UHGV virus genome: UHGV-0322013
DNA: 31,976 nt
From: a virus
Direction: 5' to 3' (one strand)
Positions 2,320 to 31,976 of this stretch are shown here, in pieces. The translations under genes and the position numbers were made by a program. The notes below the pieces were generated by a model. The model saw nothing but the letters and a program-made list of their open reading frames with translations, was not told the origin of the DNA and made no database searches. Positions within the stretch are counted from its first letter, which is position 1, and each line of letters begins with the position of its first letter.

Positions 2320-3255
2320 TCAGTAGTTATGTACTGAAGGAGGTAATTCTTTATTCTTAAGTCTCATCCATGCGGAAAGATTCGTTGGTCCGTCTGGCTC
2401 ATTAATATCAACATCTCGTGTGTGATTGATTAAAACGTCTCTCGCCATTCCGATAACATACGAGAACTCATGACCGTAGTCGTAGCATCTGCCTGAATAG
2501 TTCGATTGAATTTGTTTTAGCGCCGGATACAGTTCGCGGAATAATGCCTGTGAGCGGTTGGCATAATCCCATAACCATACAAGGCTGTTTGCTTCTTTTG
2601 CAGAAAGCTCGTTGGTTTTCTTCTCTTGTTTGCCGATGAACTCGCCTTCGAGCGGAACGCGAGCTGCAAGTGACAGTGCTTCGGCAAACTGCTCCTCACT
2701 GATTTCTTTGTACGAACATCCAAAATGGGATTTCAGTGACGACCACATGGTGATCATCGCCTTAGCCTGTTTTTCTTTTGGCAGAGACTGACCGCGACTC
2801 ATGACGAGTTGTTTAATGGCTTCCTGCTGTTCAGTGGTGATTTTACCAGGCAACGCCTTTTTAGCTTTGCGTGGGTTAACTACATGGCCTTTAGTCCAGT
2901 AGTCATGCAGCACGCTAAAGCATTCCTCCTGGTACTGAATCAGTTTATCACGGATGTCAGCACGAACTTTCTCAGGGTTGATGCTGAACAGCCATCCATT
3001 TAACTTCTTCAAAGGAAGGCAGAGTAGCTTACGAAGCTTCCCATCAGCGGCAACCATGTTCATATGAACACAGTTGAATTTGCTAATCTGCTTCATGAGT
3101 TTTGTTTGCTGCGTTGACCAGCTCATTCCAAGGTTTTCAACGATTGGCTTCATCGCAACATATGCAACTCCGGCAGCCATGGCGGTGATAATTTGCTGAC
3201 CGTTGAATGGTACGTAAGAGGTGTTCACTGCTTCTAAAATTGCTATACTATTCAT
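2320..3255 (-). CDS. ant: Antirepressor Ant (P22 immI type)
   Basis: Track ORF 2320..3321; start placed at internal ATG ([46 protein letters not shown]...) which matches the P22 Ant N-terminus and has a GGAG RBS; 311 aa. Confidence 0.85.
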
Positions 3256-3320
3256 GTTGGTTTTTCTCCACGGATTTACTGACAACCGAAGCCCTGACTG
3301 TTCCCGCAGTTGGGGCTTCA
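3250..3320 (+). ncRNA. Candidate sar-like antisense RNA covering the ant ribosome-binding site (arc-ant intercistronic region)
   Basis: Plus strand has a TATACT -10-like hexamer inside the ant 5' end, then sequence antisense to the ant RBS and a stem (GAAGCCC / GGGCTTC). By analogy to P22 sar; boundaries are approximate. Confidence 0.3.
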
Positions 3321-3323
3321 ACT

Positions 3324-3485
3324 TTACGCGCCAATGCGCCCTTCCTTCTTAAAGCTGTCCATTACTCTCTGATAAATCTCAGAGTTAACAGATCGACCAT
3401 TCTCTTCCGCCACCTTGCGTACCAAATCCAATACTTCTTTAGGCCACCGCAAATTGAACTGCGGCATTTTGCTCATTCCTTTCAT
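3324..3485 (-). CDS. arc: Arc repressor (ribbon-helix-helix)
   Basis: Internal start of track ORF 3324..3548 gives [53 protein letters not shown] (53 aa), near-identical to P22 Arc as recalled. Confidence 0.9.
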
Positions 3486-3575
3486 ATTCACCTCACAATA
3501 TGGGTCCACCGTGGACCTATTGAGAATATAGTAGAGTGCTTCTATCATGTCAATACACTAACTTGGAGTGATGGC
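3486..3575. promoter_or_regulatory. immI divergent promoter/operator region: Mnt operator palindrome (about 3502-3518) and Arc operator (about 3528-3548) overlapping Pant and Pmnt
   Basis: GGGTCCACCGTGGACCT is a perfect palindrome matching the P22 Omnt core; ATAGTAGAGTGCTTCTATCAT is the reverse complement of the 21-bp P22 arc operator as recalled. Confidence 0.75.
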
Positions 3576-3827
3576 ATGGCTAGAGATGATCCGCACTTTA
3601 ACTTCCGTATGCCTATGGAAGTAAGGGAGAAATTAAAATTCAGGGCGGAGGCGAATGGGAGATCAATGAACTCTGAGTTGTTACAAATCGTCCAAGATGC
3701 TCTATCAAAACCATCGCCTGTGACTGGATATCGTGACGATGCAGAACGACTCGCTGATGAACAGTCAGATCTTGTTAAGAAGATGGTGTTTGATACGCTG
3801 AAGGATTTGTACAAAAAACCCACCTGA
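3576..3827 (+). CDS. mnt: Mnt repressor (ribbon-helix-helix; maintenance of lysogeny)
   Basis: Internal ATG of track ORF 3207..3827 gives MARDDPHFNFRMPMEVREKLKFRAEANGRSMNSELLQIVQDALSKPSPVTGYRDDAERLADEQSDLVKKMVFDTLKDLYKKPT (83 aa), matching P22 Mnt; GGAG RBS 8 nt upstream. Confidence 0.9.
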   Translation: MARDDPHFNFRMPMEVREKLKFRAEANGRSMNSELLQIVQDALSKPSPVTGYRDDAERLADEQSDLVKKMVFDTLKDLYKKPT

Positions 3828-3845
3828 AGGTGGGTCCTATTTATT
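3812..3845. terminator. Bidirectional rho-independent terminator between convergent mnt and the lipoprotein gene
   Basis: AAAAAACCCACC-TGAA-GGTGGGT then CCTATTTATT; the mnt stop codon TGA is the hairpin loop; A/T runs on both sides. Confidence 0.6.
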
Positions 3846-4263
3846 AGTCTTGCTTTGTTGATGGTATAAGAGATGCGTTTGCCTCTTTTGGCTTCAAGGT
3901 ATACATTCCACCATTAAATGGATCTACAGCAAGCCAACCAATTAACCCACCAAACACAAGGTTCCCACCAATATACCAACCATTAGCATTGGCTTTGATT
4001 GGCAGGGTAACTGGTTCATACCCATCCTTCTCCATAGTGATCTGGTAGCTCTTTTTGCCAAAATAGCTACCATCTGACTTGGCGAGTGTTACACCTTGTG
4101 GGGTCTTACCTTGCGCAACAATCACACCTGACTCATCTTTTACCTTAAAGCTCGCGCCAGAAGGATTGCTGTTCACTTGCACAAGTTGCGTTTCATCACC
4201 AACAATAGTTGCGCACCCAGATAACATGATAACGCCAGCGACGACGCTAATAATCCTCTTCAT
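3844..4263 (-). CDS. Lipoprotein of unknown function (PEGA-like beta domain, Gly-rich hydrophobic C-terminus); accessory gene in the P22 sieA position
   Basis: Track ORF 3844..4275; likely start at MKRIISVVAGVIMLSGC (signal peptide with lipobox LSGC). The mature part shows a PEGA-like pattern (VQVNSNPSGASFKV...GKTPQGVTLAKSDG...DGYEPVTLPI) and ends GGNLVFGGLIGWLAVDPFNGG. Confidence 0.7.
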   Translation of the reverse strand: MKRIISVVAGVIMLSGCATIVGDETQLVQVNSNPSGASFKVKDESGVIVAQGKTPQGVTLAKSDGSYFGKKSYQITMEKDGYEPVTLPIKANANGWYIGGNLVFGGLIGWLAVDPFNGGMYTLKPKEANASLIPSTKQD

Positions 4264-4380
4264 ATCAATTTCCATATTAAAAAAAACGGAAACATCCTAA
4301 TGACAAACCATTCAAATGTGAAGTAGGCAAAAGATGTTTACTTTTTTCATGGTATCCTGCTCAAAACTAAGGAGGTTGGT

Positions 4381-4704
4381 GTGTATACAACAGTTATCGT
4401 GATAGCTATCGCACTCATTGTGGTTCAGTATCAACTGGCATCTTTAAAACAAAAGATATTTGACCTCAAGACTGAGAACGAAGCACTTAAAAACTCAATA
4501 AAAGATGAGAAGAACAAACTATCATTCACTATATCTGATATTGAGCAATCCATTGAAATTATTGAGAATAATATTAACAGACTAAAAAAAGAAGATATTC
4601 ATGAAATCAATAACAATATCAAGGATTTGAAATCTTGGATTAGGAATGTAGGACAAATCTCCACATCAACACGAGATAAGCTCAATCCATCCATGGATGA
4701 CTAA
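4381..4704 (+). CDS. Small membrane-anchored coiled-coil protein, unknown function (AT-rich accessory gene)
   Basis: 107-aa ORF with GTG start 5 nt after AAGGAGG; N-terminal hydrophobic helix (YTTVIVIAIALIVVQY) then heptad-like K/E/N-rich sequence; very AT-rich; on the opposite strand to the flanking late genes. Confidence 0.6.
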   Translation: MYTTVIVIAIALIVVQYQLASLKQKIFDLKTENEALKNSIKDEKNKLSFTISDIEQSIEIIENNINRLKKEDIHEINNNIKDLKSWIRNVGQISTSTRDKLNPSMDD

Positions 4705-29068: not shown

Positions 29069-29473
29069 TTAAGCCTCCTCTACTTCGTAATCAGCGAAGT
29101 AACCAGTAGACATTTTTAAAAACCTTGATTCGGTGACTGTGTAAGCCTTCCTTCCTTTCCTCTCCTTGCCTTCAGGCTCTATGAGGTGGCACGAATAAAT
29201 GATTCTGCGCTGCCAGTTGCCTGGCATTTCCACCACTGCCAGAACCTCAAGAATTCTCTTTCCTTCAGCATCAGCGGTGTAAAAACACTGATCACCATAA
29301 CCACAATCGGCTGGCTCATAATTTTTGTGACAACCGCCAATCCAGCGCTCATCGGTATGCACGTTGCCGTCATAAGACTGATAATCTGTGCATACGAAGA
29401 TAAATGGATATACGGTTTCGAACTTGTCACCGGCCTTTATGCCGGTGTTTACTTGCTTGGTTTGTCCTGGCAT
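29069..29473 (-). CDS. Hypothetical Cys/His-rich protein between cII and the replication genes
   Basis: Track ORF 29069..29680 trimmed to the ATG at 29473 with RBS AGGAG ([65 protein letters not shown]...); 134 aa. The longer form would overlap cII. Confidence 0.6.
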
Positions 29474-29905: not shown

Positions 29906-30136
29906 TTAAGCAGCCATTAATTCAGGCCAGATGCTTTCCCAATCAACCGGATGAAGGTCTTTGCGAGTCACTTCACCATTGCTGAACTTCTCAATCAGAA
30001 CACAAAGTGCTGCGCCCAATTCATGATTACGGCTAAGTGCTTTCCTCAAATAGCCGATAGAAGTTCCGCACTTGGTGGCAAATTCTCTCTGCTCTTCCAG
30101 TGAAAGGGAGTTCAGATACAAGCGGAGTTCTTCCAT
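29906..30136 (-). CDS. cro: Cro-like repressor (HTH), divergent from cI
   Basis: 76-aa ORF with AAGGAG RBS, first gene of the rightward early operon opposite cI; not similar to lambda Cro. Confidence 0.7.
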   Translation of the reverse strand: MEELRLYLNSLSLEEQREFATKCGTSIGYLRKALSRNHELGAALCVLIEKFSNGEVTRKDLHPVDWESIWPELMAA

Positions 30137-30244
30137 TTGCTATCTCCTTCCCGTTGTTGAATAAGGTAAGTTTACCTGCAGGTAAAAAACAAATCAATAC
30201 CCACAGGTTATTTACCAACAGGTAATCAAAGATAGAATTAAATC
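30137..30244. promoter_or_regulatory. Right operator/promoter region (OR, pR, pRM) with repeated TTACCTGCAGGTAA-type palindromic half-sites
   Basis: TTTACCTGCAGGTAAA (about 30171-30186), CCCACAGGTTA and TTTACCAACAGGTAATC (about 30200-30228); TAGAAT -10-like hexamer 7 nt before the cI ATG (near-leaderless, as for lambda pRM). Confidence 0.7.
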
Positions 30245-30931
30245 ATGGATAAATACGAACAAAGACGACTAAGGCTGATAGAGATAAGAGACCGATTCTG
30301 TAATGGAAAGGCCTCAGAGTTGGCTCGTCGAATAGAAAGGGAACCATCATACGTTTCCAGAATGCTGTATCCGGAAGGAAAAAGCGGAAAAAAACGCATT
30401 GCTGACGATATGATGGAACTAATTGAAAAATCTTTTAATCTCCCACGCGGATGGATGGACATGCTTGCAGATAGCAAAGTTGGATCTGCAGACCATCTTG
30501 AGTTTGCGGGTAACGTTCGTGCGGGTTTTGTTCCGGTAATTGGTGAAGCCGTTTTGGGAGTTGATGGCTCAGTGGATATGATTGAATTCAGATCCGGTTG
30601 GTTAAGCATCTACAGTGGCGATAAAGATGCTTACGGTCTGAAGGTTAAGGGTGACAGCATGTGGCCAAGGATTCAGTCAGGAGAATATGTTGTTATTGAA
30701 CCAAATACGCCAGTACATCCAGGTGATGAAGTCTTTGTAAGGACCAAAGATGGTCATAACATGATAAAGATCATGAACAAAACAAGAGACGGAGACTATC
30801 AGTTTAGTAGTATAAACAGCGATCACCGTCCAATCACTCTTCCTGTTGAAGAAGTTGATAAAATGCATTTTGTTTCAGCTATTGTGAAACACACTAGGTA
30901 CGTAGACCAGGACGATCTGCCAAAATTTTGA
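30245..30931 (+). CDS. cI: CI-type prophage repressor (N-terminal HTH, C-terminal LexA/S24-like autocleavage domain)
   Basis: 228 aa; C-terminal domain with GDSMWPRI and downstream lysine, typical of S24 peptidase-type repressors; divergent from cro across the operator region. Confidence 0.85.
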   Translation: MDKYEQRRLRLIEIRDRFCNGKASELARRIEREPSYVSRMLYPEGKSGKKRIADDMMELIEKSFNLPRGWMDMLADSKVGSADHLEFAGNVRAGFVPVIGEAVLGVDGSVDMIEFRSGWLSIYSGDKDAYGLKVKGDSMWPRIQSGEYVVIEPNTPVHPGDEVFVRTKDGHNMIKIMNKTRDGDYQFSSINSDHRPITLPVEEVDKMHFVSAIVKHTRYVDQDDLPKF

Positions 30932-30945
30932 GGATAAAGCAGCAA

Positions 30946-31242
30946 ATGTTTATACCAGGTATAGTGGTCGCTGTTGTAATCATCTGCTTCATATGGGCAA
31001 AGTTATCTCCTGTAAGCTCTAAGCATACAGCTGAACTCATGAAGAAGAAGCATCTTATACATGAGGCAGAAACGATAATTAAGAAGTTCAAAGGCATGTC
31101 ATATGACGACATGTCATCAGATCAGATTGCTATATATAAATGCGCCATTGAGCGTCTTGACTACTTAAACGGACTCAAACCCAAACACACCCCGGTAGAA
31201 TCAAAATTGCCGCAATGGCCAAGCAATCCAAATAGCTTCTGA
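30946..31242 (+). CDS. Small membrane protein co-transcribed with cI (rexAB position); unknown function
   Basis: Track ORF 30928..31242 overlaps the cI stop; probable ATG at 30946: MFIPGIVVAVVIICFIWAKLSPVSS... (98 aa, one N-terminal TM helix then a charged soluble region); followed by a terminator and then OL/pL. Confidence 0.6.
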   Translation: MFIPGIVVAVVIICFIWAKLSPVSSKHTAELMKKKHLIHEAETIIKKFKGMSYDDMSSDQIAIYKCAIERLDYLNGLKPKHTPVESKLPQWPSNPNSF

Positions 31243-31253
31243 CATCTCCTTTC

Positions 31254-31277
31254 AGCCCGCAAAGCGGGCTTTTTTAT
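31254..31277 (+). terminator. tImm-like rho-independent terminator ending the cI operon
   Basis: AGCCCGC-AAA-GCGGGCT followed by TTTTTTAT. Confidence 0.7.
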
Positions 31278-31296
31278 ATCAATCCAAAAAATTAAT

Positions 31297-31380
31297 TACC
31301 TGAAAATTCAAACAGGTAAACTCTCACACCAATTTTATTTACCTGCAGGTATAGACAACAGTTTTACCTGTAGGTATATT
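31297..31380. promoter_or_regulatory. Left operator/promoter region (OL, pL) with three TACCTG...CAGGTA operator sites
   Basis: TTACCTGAAAATTCAAACAGGTAA, TTTACCTGCAGGTATA and TTTACCTGTAGGTATATT; candidate pL -35 TAGACA and -10 TATATT spaced 17 bp. Confidence 0.65.
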
Positions 31381-31719: not shown

Positions 31720-31976
31720 ATGGATGCACAAACACGCCGCCGCGAACGTCGCGCAGAGAAACAGGCTCAATGGAAAGCAGCAAATCCCCTGTTGGTTGGG
31801 GTAAGCGCAAAACCAGTTAACCGCCCTATTCTCTCGCTGAATCGCAAACCGAAATCACGAGTAGAAAGCGCACTGAATCCGATAGACCTTACGGTGCTGG
31901 CTGAATACCACGAACAGATTGAAAGCAACCTGCAACGTATTGAGCGCAAGAATCAGCGCACATGGTACAGCAAGCC
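31720..31976 (+). CDS. N: Antitermination protein N (lambda N), 5' partial; continues beyond the window
   Basis: MDAQTRRRERRAEKQAQWKAANPLLVGVSAKPVNRPILSLNRKPKSRVESALNPIDLTVLAEYHEQIESNLQRIERKNQRTWYSK is essentially identical to lambda N over the 85 visible residues; RBS AGGAG. Confidence 0.95.
   Translation, partial: MDAQTRRRERRAEKQAQWKAANPLLVGVSAKPVNRPILSLNRKPKSRVESALNPIDLTVLAEYHEQIESNLQRIERKNQRTWYSK

What the first reader, a model, noticed from the sequence alone, without database searches (positions are those of the whole stretch)
30928..31290. Small membrane protein fused to the cI operon in the rexAB slot: candidate prophage-expressed exclusion or abortive-infection gene
Directly downstream of cI, and overlapping its stop codon, is a ~98-aa ORF with one N-terminal transmembrane helix and a charged C-terminal region. 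It is followed by a clean terminator and only then by OL/pL and nutL. That is exactly where lambda keeps rexA/rexB and other lambdoid phages keep lysogen-expressed defence or conversion genes. I do not recognise the protein as Rex, SieB or any described exclusion factor.
Basis: partly seen in the sequence, partly recalled or inferred. Interest (0 to 1): 0.7.

Follow-up and report, generated by a model that had tools for sequence, protein, structure and literature searches.

The report
Uncharacterised membrane gene riding behind cI
A real, conserved but functionally unknown 98-residue inner-membrane protein gene sits directly behind the prophage repressor gene cI, and its only relatives sit where related phages keep the exclusion gene sieA, so it is a good but unproven candidate for a new anti-superinfection protein.

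Summary
A 98-aa ORF (ATG 30946-31242; an in-frame TTG at 30928 overlaps the cI stop) follows cI. After it come an intrinsic terminator (31254-31278), OL/pL, nutL and a lambda-type N gene.

The ORF is a real gene:
- All 27 IMG/VR copies are intact, and 12 of 18 variable sites fall at codon position 3.
- It accompanies this cI in all 52 E. coli genomes that carry it. RefSeq leaves it unannotated in 50 of them.

It belongs to phrog_10450 (function unknown), a tiny enterobacterial family. It has no Pfam, NCBIfam, PADLOC, PDB or BFVD match, and no profile similarity to SieA, SieB, RexA or RexB. All members have one N-terminal transmembrane helix and a predicted cytoplasmic helical domain with invariant Cys66 and Trp91-Pro92.

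The family occurs in only two places. One is directly behind cI. The other is in P22-like phages between ejection gene 16 and the tailspike gene, which is the sieA slot; SieA was absent from every such locus examined. Among alleles, cI is 83% and Cro 88-92% identical, but the ORF is only 39-48%.

My best reading is a lysogen-expressed exclusion or defence factor acting at the inner membrane. Expression and function are inferred, not shown. No paper in the searched library mentions it.

The parts
30171..30226 (.). OR operators (three TACCnnCAGGTA-type palindromes) between cro and cI
   Evidence: the repeat finder; sequence
30211..30238 (+). pRM-like promoter (TTTACC-16-TAGAAT) ending 7 nt before the cI ATG. 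This implies a leaderless or near-leaderless cI-ORF transcript. Putative.
   Evidence: 9/12 match, chance-level score on its own; its position relative to OR and cI as in lambda is an inference
30245..30931 (+). cI repressor (228 aa, S24 peptidase C-terminal domain)
   Evidence: Pfam PF00717 E 1.4e-17 and phrog_4; annotated cI in mEp043
30931..30935 (+). Shine-Dalgarno-like GAGGA overlapping the end of cI, 10 nt before ATG 30946
   Evidence: conserved in 27/27 IMG/VR copies; GAGGA or GGGA is likewise placed in L009 and L008
30946..31242 (+). Focal ORF, 98 aa plus stop (alternative in-frame TTG start at 30928 gives 104 aa); member of phrog_10450
30949..31005 (+). N-terminal transmembrane segment (residues 2-20, FIPGIVVAVVIICFIWAKL), predicted N-out/C-in
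   Evidence: hydropathy and flanking-charge count for all 20 family members; AF2 helix 4-47
31045..31221 (+). Conserved predicted cytoplasmic helical domain (residues 34-92; invariant K34, I38, E40, A41, M56, C66, A67, L71, W91, P92)
   Evidence: alignment A3; AF2 pLDDT 82-93 over residues 31-90
31254..31278 (+). Intrinsic terminator ending the cI-ORF operon
   Evidence: invariant in 27/27 copies; a different hairpin plus T-run at the same place in L008
31297..31380 (+). OL operators and pL (TAGACA-17-TATATT at 31352-31380)
   Evidence: conserved at about 80% nt in L008 and L009
31421..31451 (+). nutL (boxA-like TGCTCTTA at 31421-28; boxB GCCCTGAAGAAGGGC at 31437-51)
   Evidence: sequence; hairpin picked up; the match to lambda nutL is from my own knowledge of the lambda sequence
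31721..31976 (+). Lambda-type antiterminator N gene, cut by the end of the window

Best explanation
The ORF is a genuine accessory gene of the immunity operon. It is most likely transcribed with cI from pRM in lysogens (and from pRE during establishment) and translated from a ribosome-binding site embedded in the end of cI.

It encodes a single-pass inner-membrane protein. The N-terminus of 1-3 residues faces the periplasm, and a roughly 75-residue helical-hairpin domain with a Trp-Pro tail faces the cytoplasm.

I propose that it is a prophage-expressed superinfection-exclusion factor. It would act at the cytoplasmic face of the inner membrane on the DNA-delivery step of incoming phages, chiefly P22-like phages whose ejection proteins gp16 and gp20 build the trans-envelope conduit. 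That would make it functionally analogous to SieA but unrelated to it.

Shown here: the gene is real, it is conserved, and the operon anatomy and the two-slot distribution are as described. Inferred: expression in lysogens, membrane topology, and the anti-phage function and its target.
For: 1. Anatomy.
- cI, the ORF, the terminator and OL/pL lie on one strand, with no terminator between cI and the ORF.
- The same arrangement, with a 3-14 nt gap, occurs in two diverged alleles, L008 and L009.
- It also occurs in 27/27 IMG/VR loci.
- All 52 E. coli genomes that carry this cI also carry the ORF and OL.

2. A coding gene under selection.
- No copy is disrupted.
- 12 of 18 variable sites are at codon position 3, and pN/pS is 0.21.

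3. Second context.
- Every member of the other subfamily (101-114 aa, 30-40% identical, same architecture) lies in a P22-like phage between gene 16 and the tailspike gene, convergent with gene 16. In some it is the last gene of the mnt operon.
- That is the position of sieA in P22 (PMC10883804).
- None of these loci, nor the window, contains a type A or type B SieA or its FxRYPxEAxxFNK motif.
- Both slots are documented as expressed from the prophage: PMC10883804 for sieA; PMC3564112 and PMC8585504 for genes behind cI.

4. Host phages.
- The window phage and 5 of 5 sampled E. coli prophages with this module are P22-like.

5. Arms-race-like pattern.
- Between the window, L008 and L009, cI is 83-87% and Cro 88-92% identical, but the ORF is only 39-48%.
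- Nucleotide identity drops from 70-90% to 38-57% exactly over the ORF and returns to about 80% at OL.

6. Topology.
- All 20 members have no charge before the TM segment and net positive charge after it.
- The conserved motif of SieA is also predicted to be cytoplasmic (PMC10883804).
Against: - There is no transcript, protein or phenotype for any member, and no paper in the searched library mentions the protein.
- A cytoplasmic functional domain is unusual for exclusion proteins that meet the injection apparatus in the periplasm.
- mEp043, which carries the gene, is a lambda-like siphovirus rather than a P22-like phage.
- One prophage carries both subfamilies (L022 and L046 on one contig). 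This fits different specificities but is not explained.
- The hyper-divergence could reflect allele swapping rather than selection.
- Promoter scans for the stand-alone copies were uninformative.
Confidence: 0.4

Rival explanations
1. Abortive-infection effector. The cytoplasmic domain senses a product of a superinfecting phage, and the transmembrane helices then oligomerise and depolarise the membrane. Infected cells die without yielding phage. This is RexB- or SieB-like in logic but carried out by a single small protein.
For: - It occupies the same slot as rexAB and bstA, both abortive-infection systems (PMC8585504).
- It is a single-pass membrane protein with a conserved cytoplasmic domain suited to sensing.
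- It diverges rapidly.
Against: - hhalign probability against RexA, RexB and SieB is below 0.5%, and there is no PADLOC hit.
- Conservation is concentrated in the soluble domain, while the TM sequence is poorly conserved. That argues against a specific pore.
- The second context is the slot of an entry blocker (sieA), not of an abortive-infection gene.
Confidence: 0.2
2. Lysogeny or host-physiology modulator rather than a defence gene. One version is a Hex-like factor that tunes repressor cleavage or spontaneous induction. Another is a membrane-tethered inhibitor or adaptor of a host inner-membrane protein (FtsH, a transporter, a sensor kinase or an envelope enzyme), giving a conversion phenotype.
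For: - 434 Hex is encoded on the pRM transcript just 3' of cI and stabilises lysogens (PMC3564112).
- The ORF is strictly linked to this cI type (52/52 genomes), which is compatible with a function coupled to the repressor.
- Neighbours of the other subfamily include O-antigen acyltransferases, which are classical conversion genes.
Against: - The second subfamily is not linked to cI at all. It sits next to the ejection genes, sometimes without any immI genes.
- A partner-specific regulator of cI would be expected to co-vary with cI. Instead the ORF is 39% identical where cI is 83%.
Confidence: 0.25
3. Not a functional gene: a fortuitous ORF or decaying remnant in the variable cI-N spacer.
For: - RefSeq (PGAP) leaves it unannotated in 50 of 52 E. 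coli genomes.
- There is no Pfam or NCBIfam family.
Against: - It is intact in every copy examined, and variation is biased to the third codon position.
- pN/pS is 0.21.
- Homologues at 30-40% identity in a second genomic context keep 10 invariant residues and the same architecture.
- The AF2 model is confident over the soluble domain.
Confidence: 0.03

Closest known systems
P22 SieA (superinfection exclusion A; Leavitt et al. 2024, PMC10883804)
   Same: - It is a prophage-expressed inner-membrane protein.
- The family's second subfamily occupies exactly the sieA position, between gene 16 and gene 9 and convergent with gene 16, in P22-like phages that lack sieA.
- The conserved part is predicted to be cytoplasmic in both.
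   Different: - SieA is 162-212 aa with 3-4 TM helices and the motif FxRYPxEAxxFNK. The focal protein is 98 aa with 1 TM helix and no such motif.
- hhalign probability is 0.3%.
- The focal copy is behind cI, not in the sieA slot.
Lambda RexA/RexB
   Same: It has the same genomic slot (between cI and OL/pL) and the same strand as cI. Co-transcription from pRM/pRE is presumed. A terminator precedes OL.
   Different: - RexAB is a two-protein system of 279 aa plus a 144-aa protein. By my recollection RexB has four TM helices.
- Here there is one 98-aa single-pass protein.
- There is no sequence relationship.
Phage 434 Hex (PMC3564112)
   Same: It is a small accessory ORF immediately 3' of cI, touching or overlapping its end, on the pRM transcript. 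It has been linked to heterologous exclusion.
   Different: - Hex is a 158-aa ORF, and the paper never mentions a membrane (0 occurrences).
- Hex blocks RecA-stimulated repressor cleavage.
- The focal protein is membrane-anchored.
- Direct sequence comparison was not done because no Hex sequence was at hand.
BstA (BTP1) and Stk (933W), defence genes downstream of cI (PMC8585504, PMC3564112)
   Same: They share synteny: a lysogen-expressed gene directly behind the repressor of a lambdoid or P22-like prophage, followed by its own terminator.
   Different: - BstA acts at sites of phage DNA replication (PMC8585504). Stk is a eukaryotic-like tyrosine kinase that aborts HK97 infection (PMC3564112).
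- No PADLOC or Pfam match links them to the focal protein.
phrog_10450 (PHROGs v4, unknown function)
   Same: Full-length match, E 2.7e-55, residues 1-98 on profile positions 1-98. All 20 family members match it.
   Different: The family carries no annotation. Its members in public phage records are mEp043 gp49 and N7 ORF14/HZ41, all 'hypothetical protein'.

Membership tests
phrog_10450 | Significant full-length match to the family profile | tested here: met
   E 2.7e-55, 185.8 bits, 1-98/98; 20 of 20 aligned relatives also match
SieA (P22-type superinfection exclusion) | Sequence homology to SieA types A, B or C, including the motif FxRYPxEAxxFNK | tested here: not met
   hhalign probability 0.3% against P22 SieA. 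tblastn with P22 and HS1 SieA and the motif regex give no hit in the window or any fetched locus. Type C was not tested.
SieA (P22-type superinfection exclusion) | Three or four predicted transmembrane helices, 162-212 aa | tested here: not met
   98 aa, with one hydrophobic segment at residues 2-20
SieA (P22-type superinfection exclusion) | Located between gene 16 and gene 9 of a P22-like prophage | tested here: not met
   The focal gene lies behind cI. That interval of the window (3844-4704) holds other ORFs. The feature is met only by the paralogous subfamily.
SieA (P22-type superinfection exclusion) | Blocks DNA injection by P22-like phages | not testable with these tools
   Needs plating, K+ efflux and lysogenisation assays
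RexAB (lambda) | Homology to RexA or RexB; a two-gene system | tested here: not met
   hhalign probability 0.2% (RexB) and 0.06% (RexA). There is a single ORF between cI and the terminator. No PADLOC hit.
RexAB (lambda) | Position between cI and OL, on the cI strand | tested here: met
SieB (P22/lambda) | Homology to SieB; location next to N/gene 24 on the side away from pL | tested here: not met
   hhalign probability 0.1%. The focal gene is upstream of pL.
Hex (phage 434) | Sequence similarity to the 158-aa Hex ORF | not tested
tblastn of the focal protein against 50,697 phage records found only mEp043 and N7/HZ41 below E 1e-3.
Hex (phage 434) | Encoded on the pRM transcript 3' of cI | tested here: inconclusive
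   The anatomy is compatible: same strand, 14-nt gap, and no terminator until 31254. Transcription was not measured.
Known anti-phage defence proteins (PADLOC-DB v2) | Match to any of 5027 defence-protein models | tested here: not met
   0 families at E<=10 for both the 98-aa and the 104-aa forms

The most novel reading that the evidence does not exclude
phrog_10450 is a previously unrecognised family of single-pass inner-membrane superinfection-exclusion proteins. It replaces SieA in P22-like coliphages and has been recruited into two independent lysogen-expressed operons: behind cI, and in the mnt/sieA slot. It blocks phage genome entry from the cytoplasmic face of the membrane. It diversifies several-fold faster than the immunity genes that flank it because it is in an arms race with the hypervariable ejection proteins.
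Probability: 0.3. Interest if true: 0.65.

Novelty: new member of a known kind. Interest (0 to 1): 0.5.

Why it matters
Genes carried on the repressor transcript are among the few phage genes expressed in every lysogenic cell. The characterised ones (rexAB, hex, stk, bstA) have each revealed a distinct defence or lysogeny-control mechanism.

This family has no recognisable relative and is missing from most RefSeq annotations. It also appears in the sieA slot of the P22-like phages examined here that lack sieA; two thirds of sequenced P22-like phages lack sieA (PMC10883804).

If it does block infection, three things follow:
- It would help explain how sieA-less P22-like prophages protect their hosts.
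- It would give a minimal 98-residue handle on the poorly understood inner-membrane step of podovirus DNA delivery.
- It would add a model to defence-finder databases.

If it does not, it is one more small conserved prophage gene of unknown role.

Tried and rejected
Annotation libraries:
- Pfam, NCBIfam and PADLOC scans gave nothing. Pfam's best hit was TTC3 at E 0.13.
- Scanning all 20 members found no consistent second family.
- Weak PHROG hits (phrog_1077 'transcriptional regulator', E 0.0045; phrog_10423) were matched by only 2 of 20 members. I rejected them as noise.

Structure searches with the AF2 model (pLDDT 79.9):
- The afdb50 library was unavailable.

Sequence and locus searches:
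- An exhaustive HMMER search of 1.84 billion representatives found only 9 proteins.
- Genome-contig scans gave nothing with the sieA-slot subfamily profile and one Escherichia sp. contig with the cI-linked profile. A first attempt failed for lack of a conserved stretch.

Direct comparisons:
- Profile comparisons with SieA, SieB, RexA, RexB and the window's own TM plus coiled-coil ORF (4381-4704) were all negative.

Other leads:
- Promoter scans upstream of the stand-alone sieA-slot copies (L010, L011) gave nothing above chance.
- I considered a link to the svsR sRNA reported at the 3' end of another cI gene (PMC12803456). I did not pursue it: that sRNA lies within a cI gene rather than downstream of one, and I did not compare the sequences.
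- Literature searches by accession, locus tag and PHROG number returned nothing.

Full report
**What is there**

The right end of the window is a lambdoid immunity region, read on the + strand.
- cro: 29906-30136, minus strand.
- Three OR palindromes: 30171-30226.
- cI: 30245-30931, with an S24 peptidase domain (Pfam E 1.4e-17).
- The focal ORF.
- A hairpin terminator: 31254-31278.
- OL and pL: 31297-31380.
- nutL: boxB at 31437-51.
- A lambda-type N gene from 31721.

The ORF is 104 codons from a TTG at 30928 that overlaps the cI stop. It is 98 codons from ATG 30946, which has GAGGA 10 nt upstream. Gene callers and related records use the 98-aa form. In mEp043 and in 5 of 27 metagenomic copies that codon is GTG. 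The terminator folds at -12.6 kcal/mol, z = -3.45, and no shuffle does as well. The one nuance is that only the longer form overlaps the cI stop.

**It is a real gene**

- The segment is 97% identical in phage mEp043, where it is annotated 'hypothetical protein'.
- It occurs in 52 of 5,426 complete E. coli genomes. The whole cI-ORF-OL block is present at full length every time, yet the ORF is annotated in only 2 of the 52.
- All 27 copies in IMG/VR are intact. Of 18 variable nucleotide sites, 12 are at the third codon position. The terminator is invariant.
- Against mEp043, pN/pS is 0.21, compared with 0.11 for cI.

**The family**

- The protein matches phrog_10450 (unknown function) end to end (E 2.7e-55). 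It matches nothing in Pfam, NCBIfam or PADLOC.
- Word-indexed searches of 5.8 billion proteins gave about 25 clusters at 90% identity.
- An exhaustive HMMER pass over 1.84 billion representatives gave nine proteins at E up to 0.001.
- Named sources are E. coli, E. fergusonii, Salmonella and Kluyvera.
- All members share one N-terminal hydrophobic segment. It has no charge before it and net positive charge after it. By the positive-inside rule this predicts a tiny periplasmic N-terminus and a cytoplasmic C-terminal domain.
- That domain carries invariant K34, I38, E40, A41, M56, C66, A67, L71, W91 and P92.
- AlphaFold2 on a 13-sequence alignment gives mean pLDDT 79.9. It shows a long helix at 4-47, a second helix at 58-75 and an ordered tail.

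**Two genomic contexts, both lysogen-expressed slots**

Subfamily A (97-98 aa) is always the gene directly behind cI. This holds for:
- the window;
- mEp043;
- 27 of 27 IMG/VR loci, all in the order cro-cI-ORF-N;
- two diverged alleles, L008 and L009, with 3-4 nt gaps to cI.

Subfamily B (101-114 aa, 30-40% identical to A) is always in a P22-like phage. It lies between ejection-protein gene 16 and the tailspike gene, convergent with gene 16.
- In N7 and L006 it is the last gene of the mnt operon.
- In other loci it occurs without immI genes.
- All 24 IMG/VR loci of this subfamily fit the pattern.

That is precisely where P22 keeps sieA. Leavitt et al. define the sieA position in the same way and note that only 22 of 66 P22-like phages carry sieA (PMC10883804). 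I found no type A (P22) or type B (HS1) SieA, and no SieA motif, in the window or in any of these loci. Subfamily B therefore sits where sieA would be in phages that lack it.

Further points on distribution:
- The window phage is itself P22-like, as are 5 of 5 sampled E. coli prophages carrying the cI-ORF module. mEp043 is a siphovirus.
- One prophage contig carries both subfamilies (L022 and L046).
- The N7 allele of subfamily B occurs in 57 of 5,426 E. coli genomes.

**An island of divergence**

Between the window and the L008 and L009 alleles, cI is 83% and Cro 90-92% identical in protein, but the ORF is only 39-40%. Nucleotide identity runs at 70-90% through cro and cI. It falls to 38-57% across the ORF and returns to about 80% over OL and pL. 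The ORF is thus the fast-evolving, or most frequently exchanged, part of an otherwise conserved module. That pattern is typical of genes engaged with variable partners. The ejection proteins are among the most variable P22-like virion genes (PMC10883804).

**Comparison with known systems**

The slot is that of lambda rexAB, 434 hex, 933W stk (PMC3564112) and BTP1 bstA (PMC8585504). Profile-profile comparisons give probabilities below 0.5%:
- SieA 0.3%
- SieB 0.1%
- RexB 0.2%
- RexA 0.06%

. The protein also fails SieA's defining architecture of 3-4 TM helices and 162-212 aa. It therefore belongs to none of these families. What it shares with them is its position and, by inference, its expression pattern. 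No paper in the searched library mentions the protein by accession, locus tag or PHROG number. Searches on exclusion in lambdoid and P22-like phages turned up nothing on it either.

**Interpretation**

Established here:
- a conserved protein-coding gene;
- operon anatomy consistent with co-transcription with cI;
- a single-pass membrane architecture;
- exclusive residence in two prophage-expressed slots;
- strong association with P22-like phages;
- rapid diversification.

Inferred: expression in lysogens, N-out/C-in topology, and function.

My ranking of the explanations:
- 0.40: a superinfection-exclusion factor acting on phage DNA delivery at the cytoplasmic face of the inner membrane, a functional stand-in for SieA.
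- 0.20: a single-protein abortive-infection effector.
- 0.25: a Hex-like or host-modulating lysogeny factor.
- 0.03: a non-functional ORF.
- The remainder is unassigned.

The evidence is positional and evolutionary only. The experiments listed under next steps would decide between these within weeks, because mEp043, N7 and the Leavitt et al. assay system already exist.

**Verdict**

This is a valid observation and a sensible interpretation that remains unproven. The gene is a new, uncharacterised family in a known class of prophage accessory genes. Interest is moderate. It is raised by the sieA-slot paralogues, the hyper-divergence and the gap in annotation. It is limited by the lack of any functional evidence and by the family's rarity, about 1% of E. 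coli genomes for each subfamily.

Noticed in passing
window 2320-3827: A complete P22-type immI region. It holds ant (about 2320-3255, minus strand), sar antisense RNA at 3256-3323 (Rfam RF00262, 95.6 bits), arc (about 3324-3485, minus strand) and mnt (about 3576-3827, plus strand). The window phage is a P22-like podovirus carrying a lambda-type N gene and mEp043-type immunity.
   Followed up: partly
window 3844-4704: The window's own sieA slot, between mnt and gene 16, contains no SieA. It holds a predicted lipoprotein ORF (3844-4275, minus strand; lipobox LSGC; phrog_6823) and a 107-aa N-terminal-TM plus coiled-coil ORF (4381-4704, plus strand; phrog_5962). Both are of unknown function and are further candidate lysogen-expressed envelope proteins. 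The second is not related to the focal family (hhalign probability 0.4%).
   Followed up: partly
window 29069-29473 (minus strand): A 134-aa ORF (phrog_30464, unknown function, no Pfam hit) is inserted between cII and the DUF2740/O replication genes. mEp043, ECONIH4 and PA45B lack it at this position. L008 has a T5orf172/MUG113 gene in the same slot. This looks like another variable cargo site in the early-right operon.
   Followed up: partly
window 30554-30582; L009 4610-4638: A promoter-like TTGGGA-17-TATGAT lies inside cI, upstream of the focal ORF, and is conserved in a diverged allele. It scores 9/12, which is chance level, and it lies in conserved coding sequence. If it were real it would be analogous to lambda pLIT.
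   Followed up: no
IMGVR_UViG_2563366933_000009 (L022 4001-4294 and L046 3929-4246): One 38-kb P22-like prophage carries both family paralogues: the copy behind cI and the copy in the sieA slot. This suggests non-redundant specificities.
   Followed up: no
RefSeq E. coli genomes, hits H81-H132: PGAP annotates the focal ORF in only 2 of 52 complete genomes that carry it, although it is intact and conserved. This is a systematic annotation gap for this small gene.
   Followed up: yes
L002 3008-3848 (phage N7 ORF16 and ORF15): In N7-type phages the mnt operon carries two more unknown genes ahead of the family member. One is a 115-aa protein with two CxxC pairs (phrog_4293). The other is a 169-aa protein with a central hydrophobic segment and a coiled-coil tail (phrog_24865). 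This three-gene cassette recurs at 98-100% identity in six IMG/VR loci.
   Followed up: partly
L003 6564-8174 (E. coli ECONIH4 prophage, the closest relative of this part of the window): An ISSpu7-family IS1634-like transposase is inserted in the early-left operon a short distance downstream of N. That prophage copy may therefore be defective.
   Followed up: no
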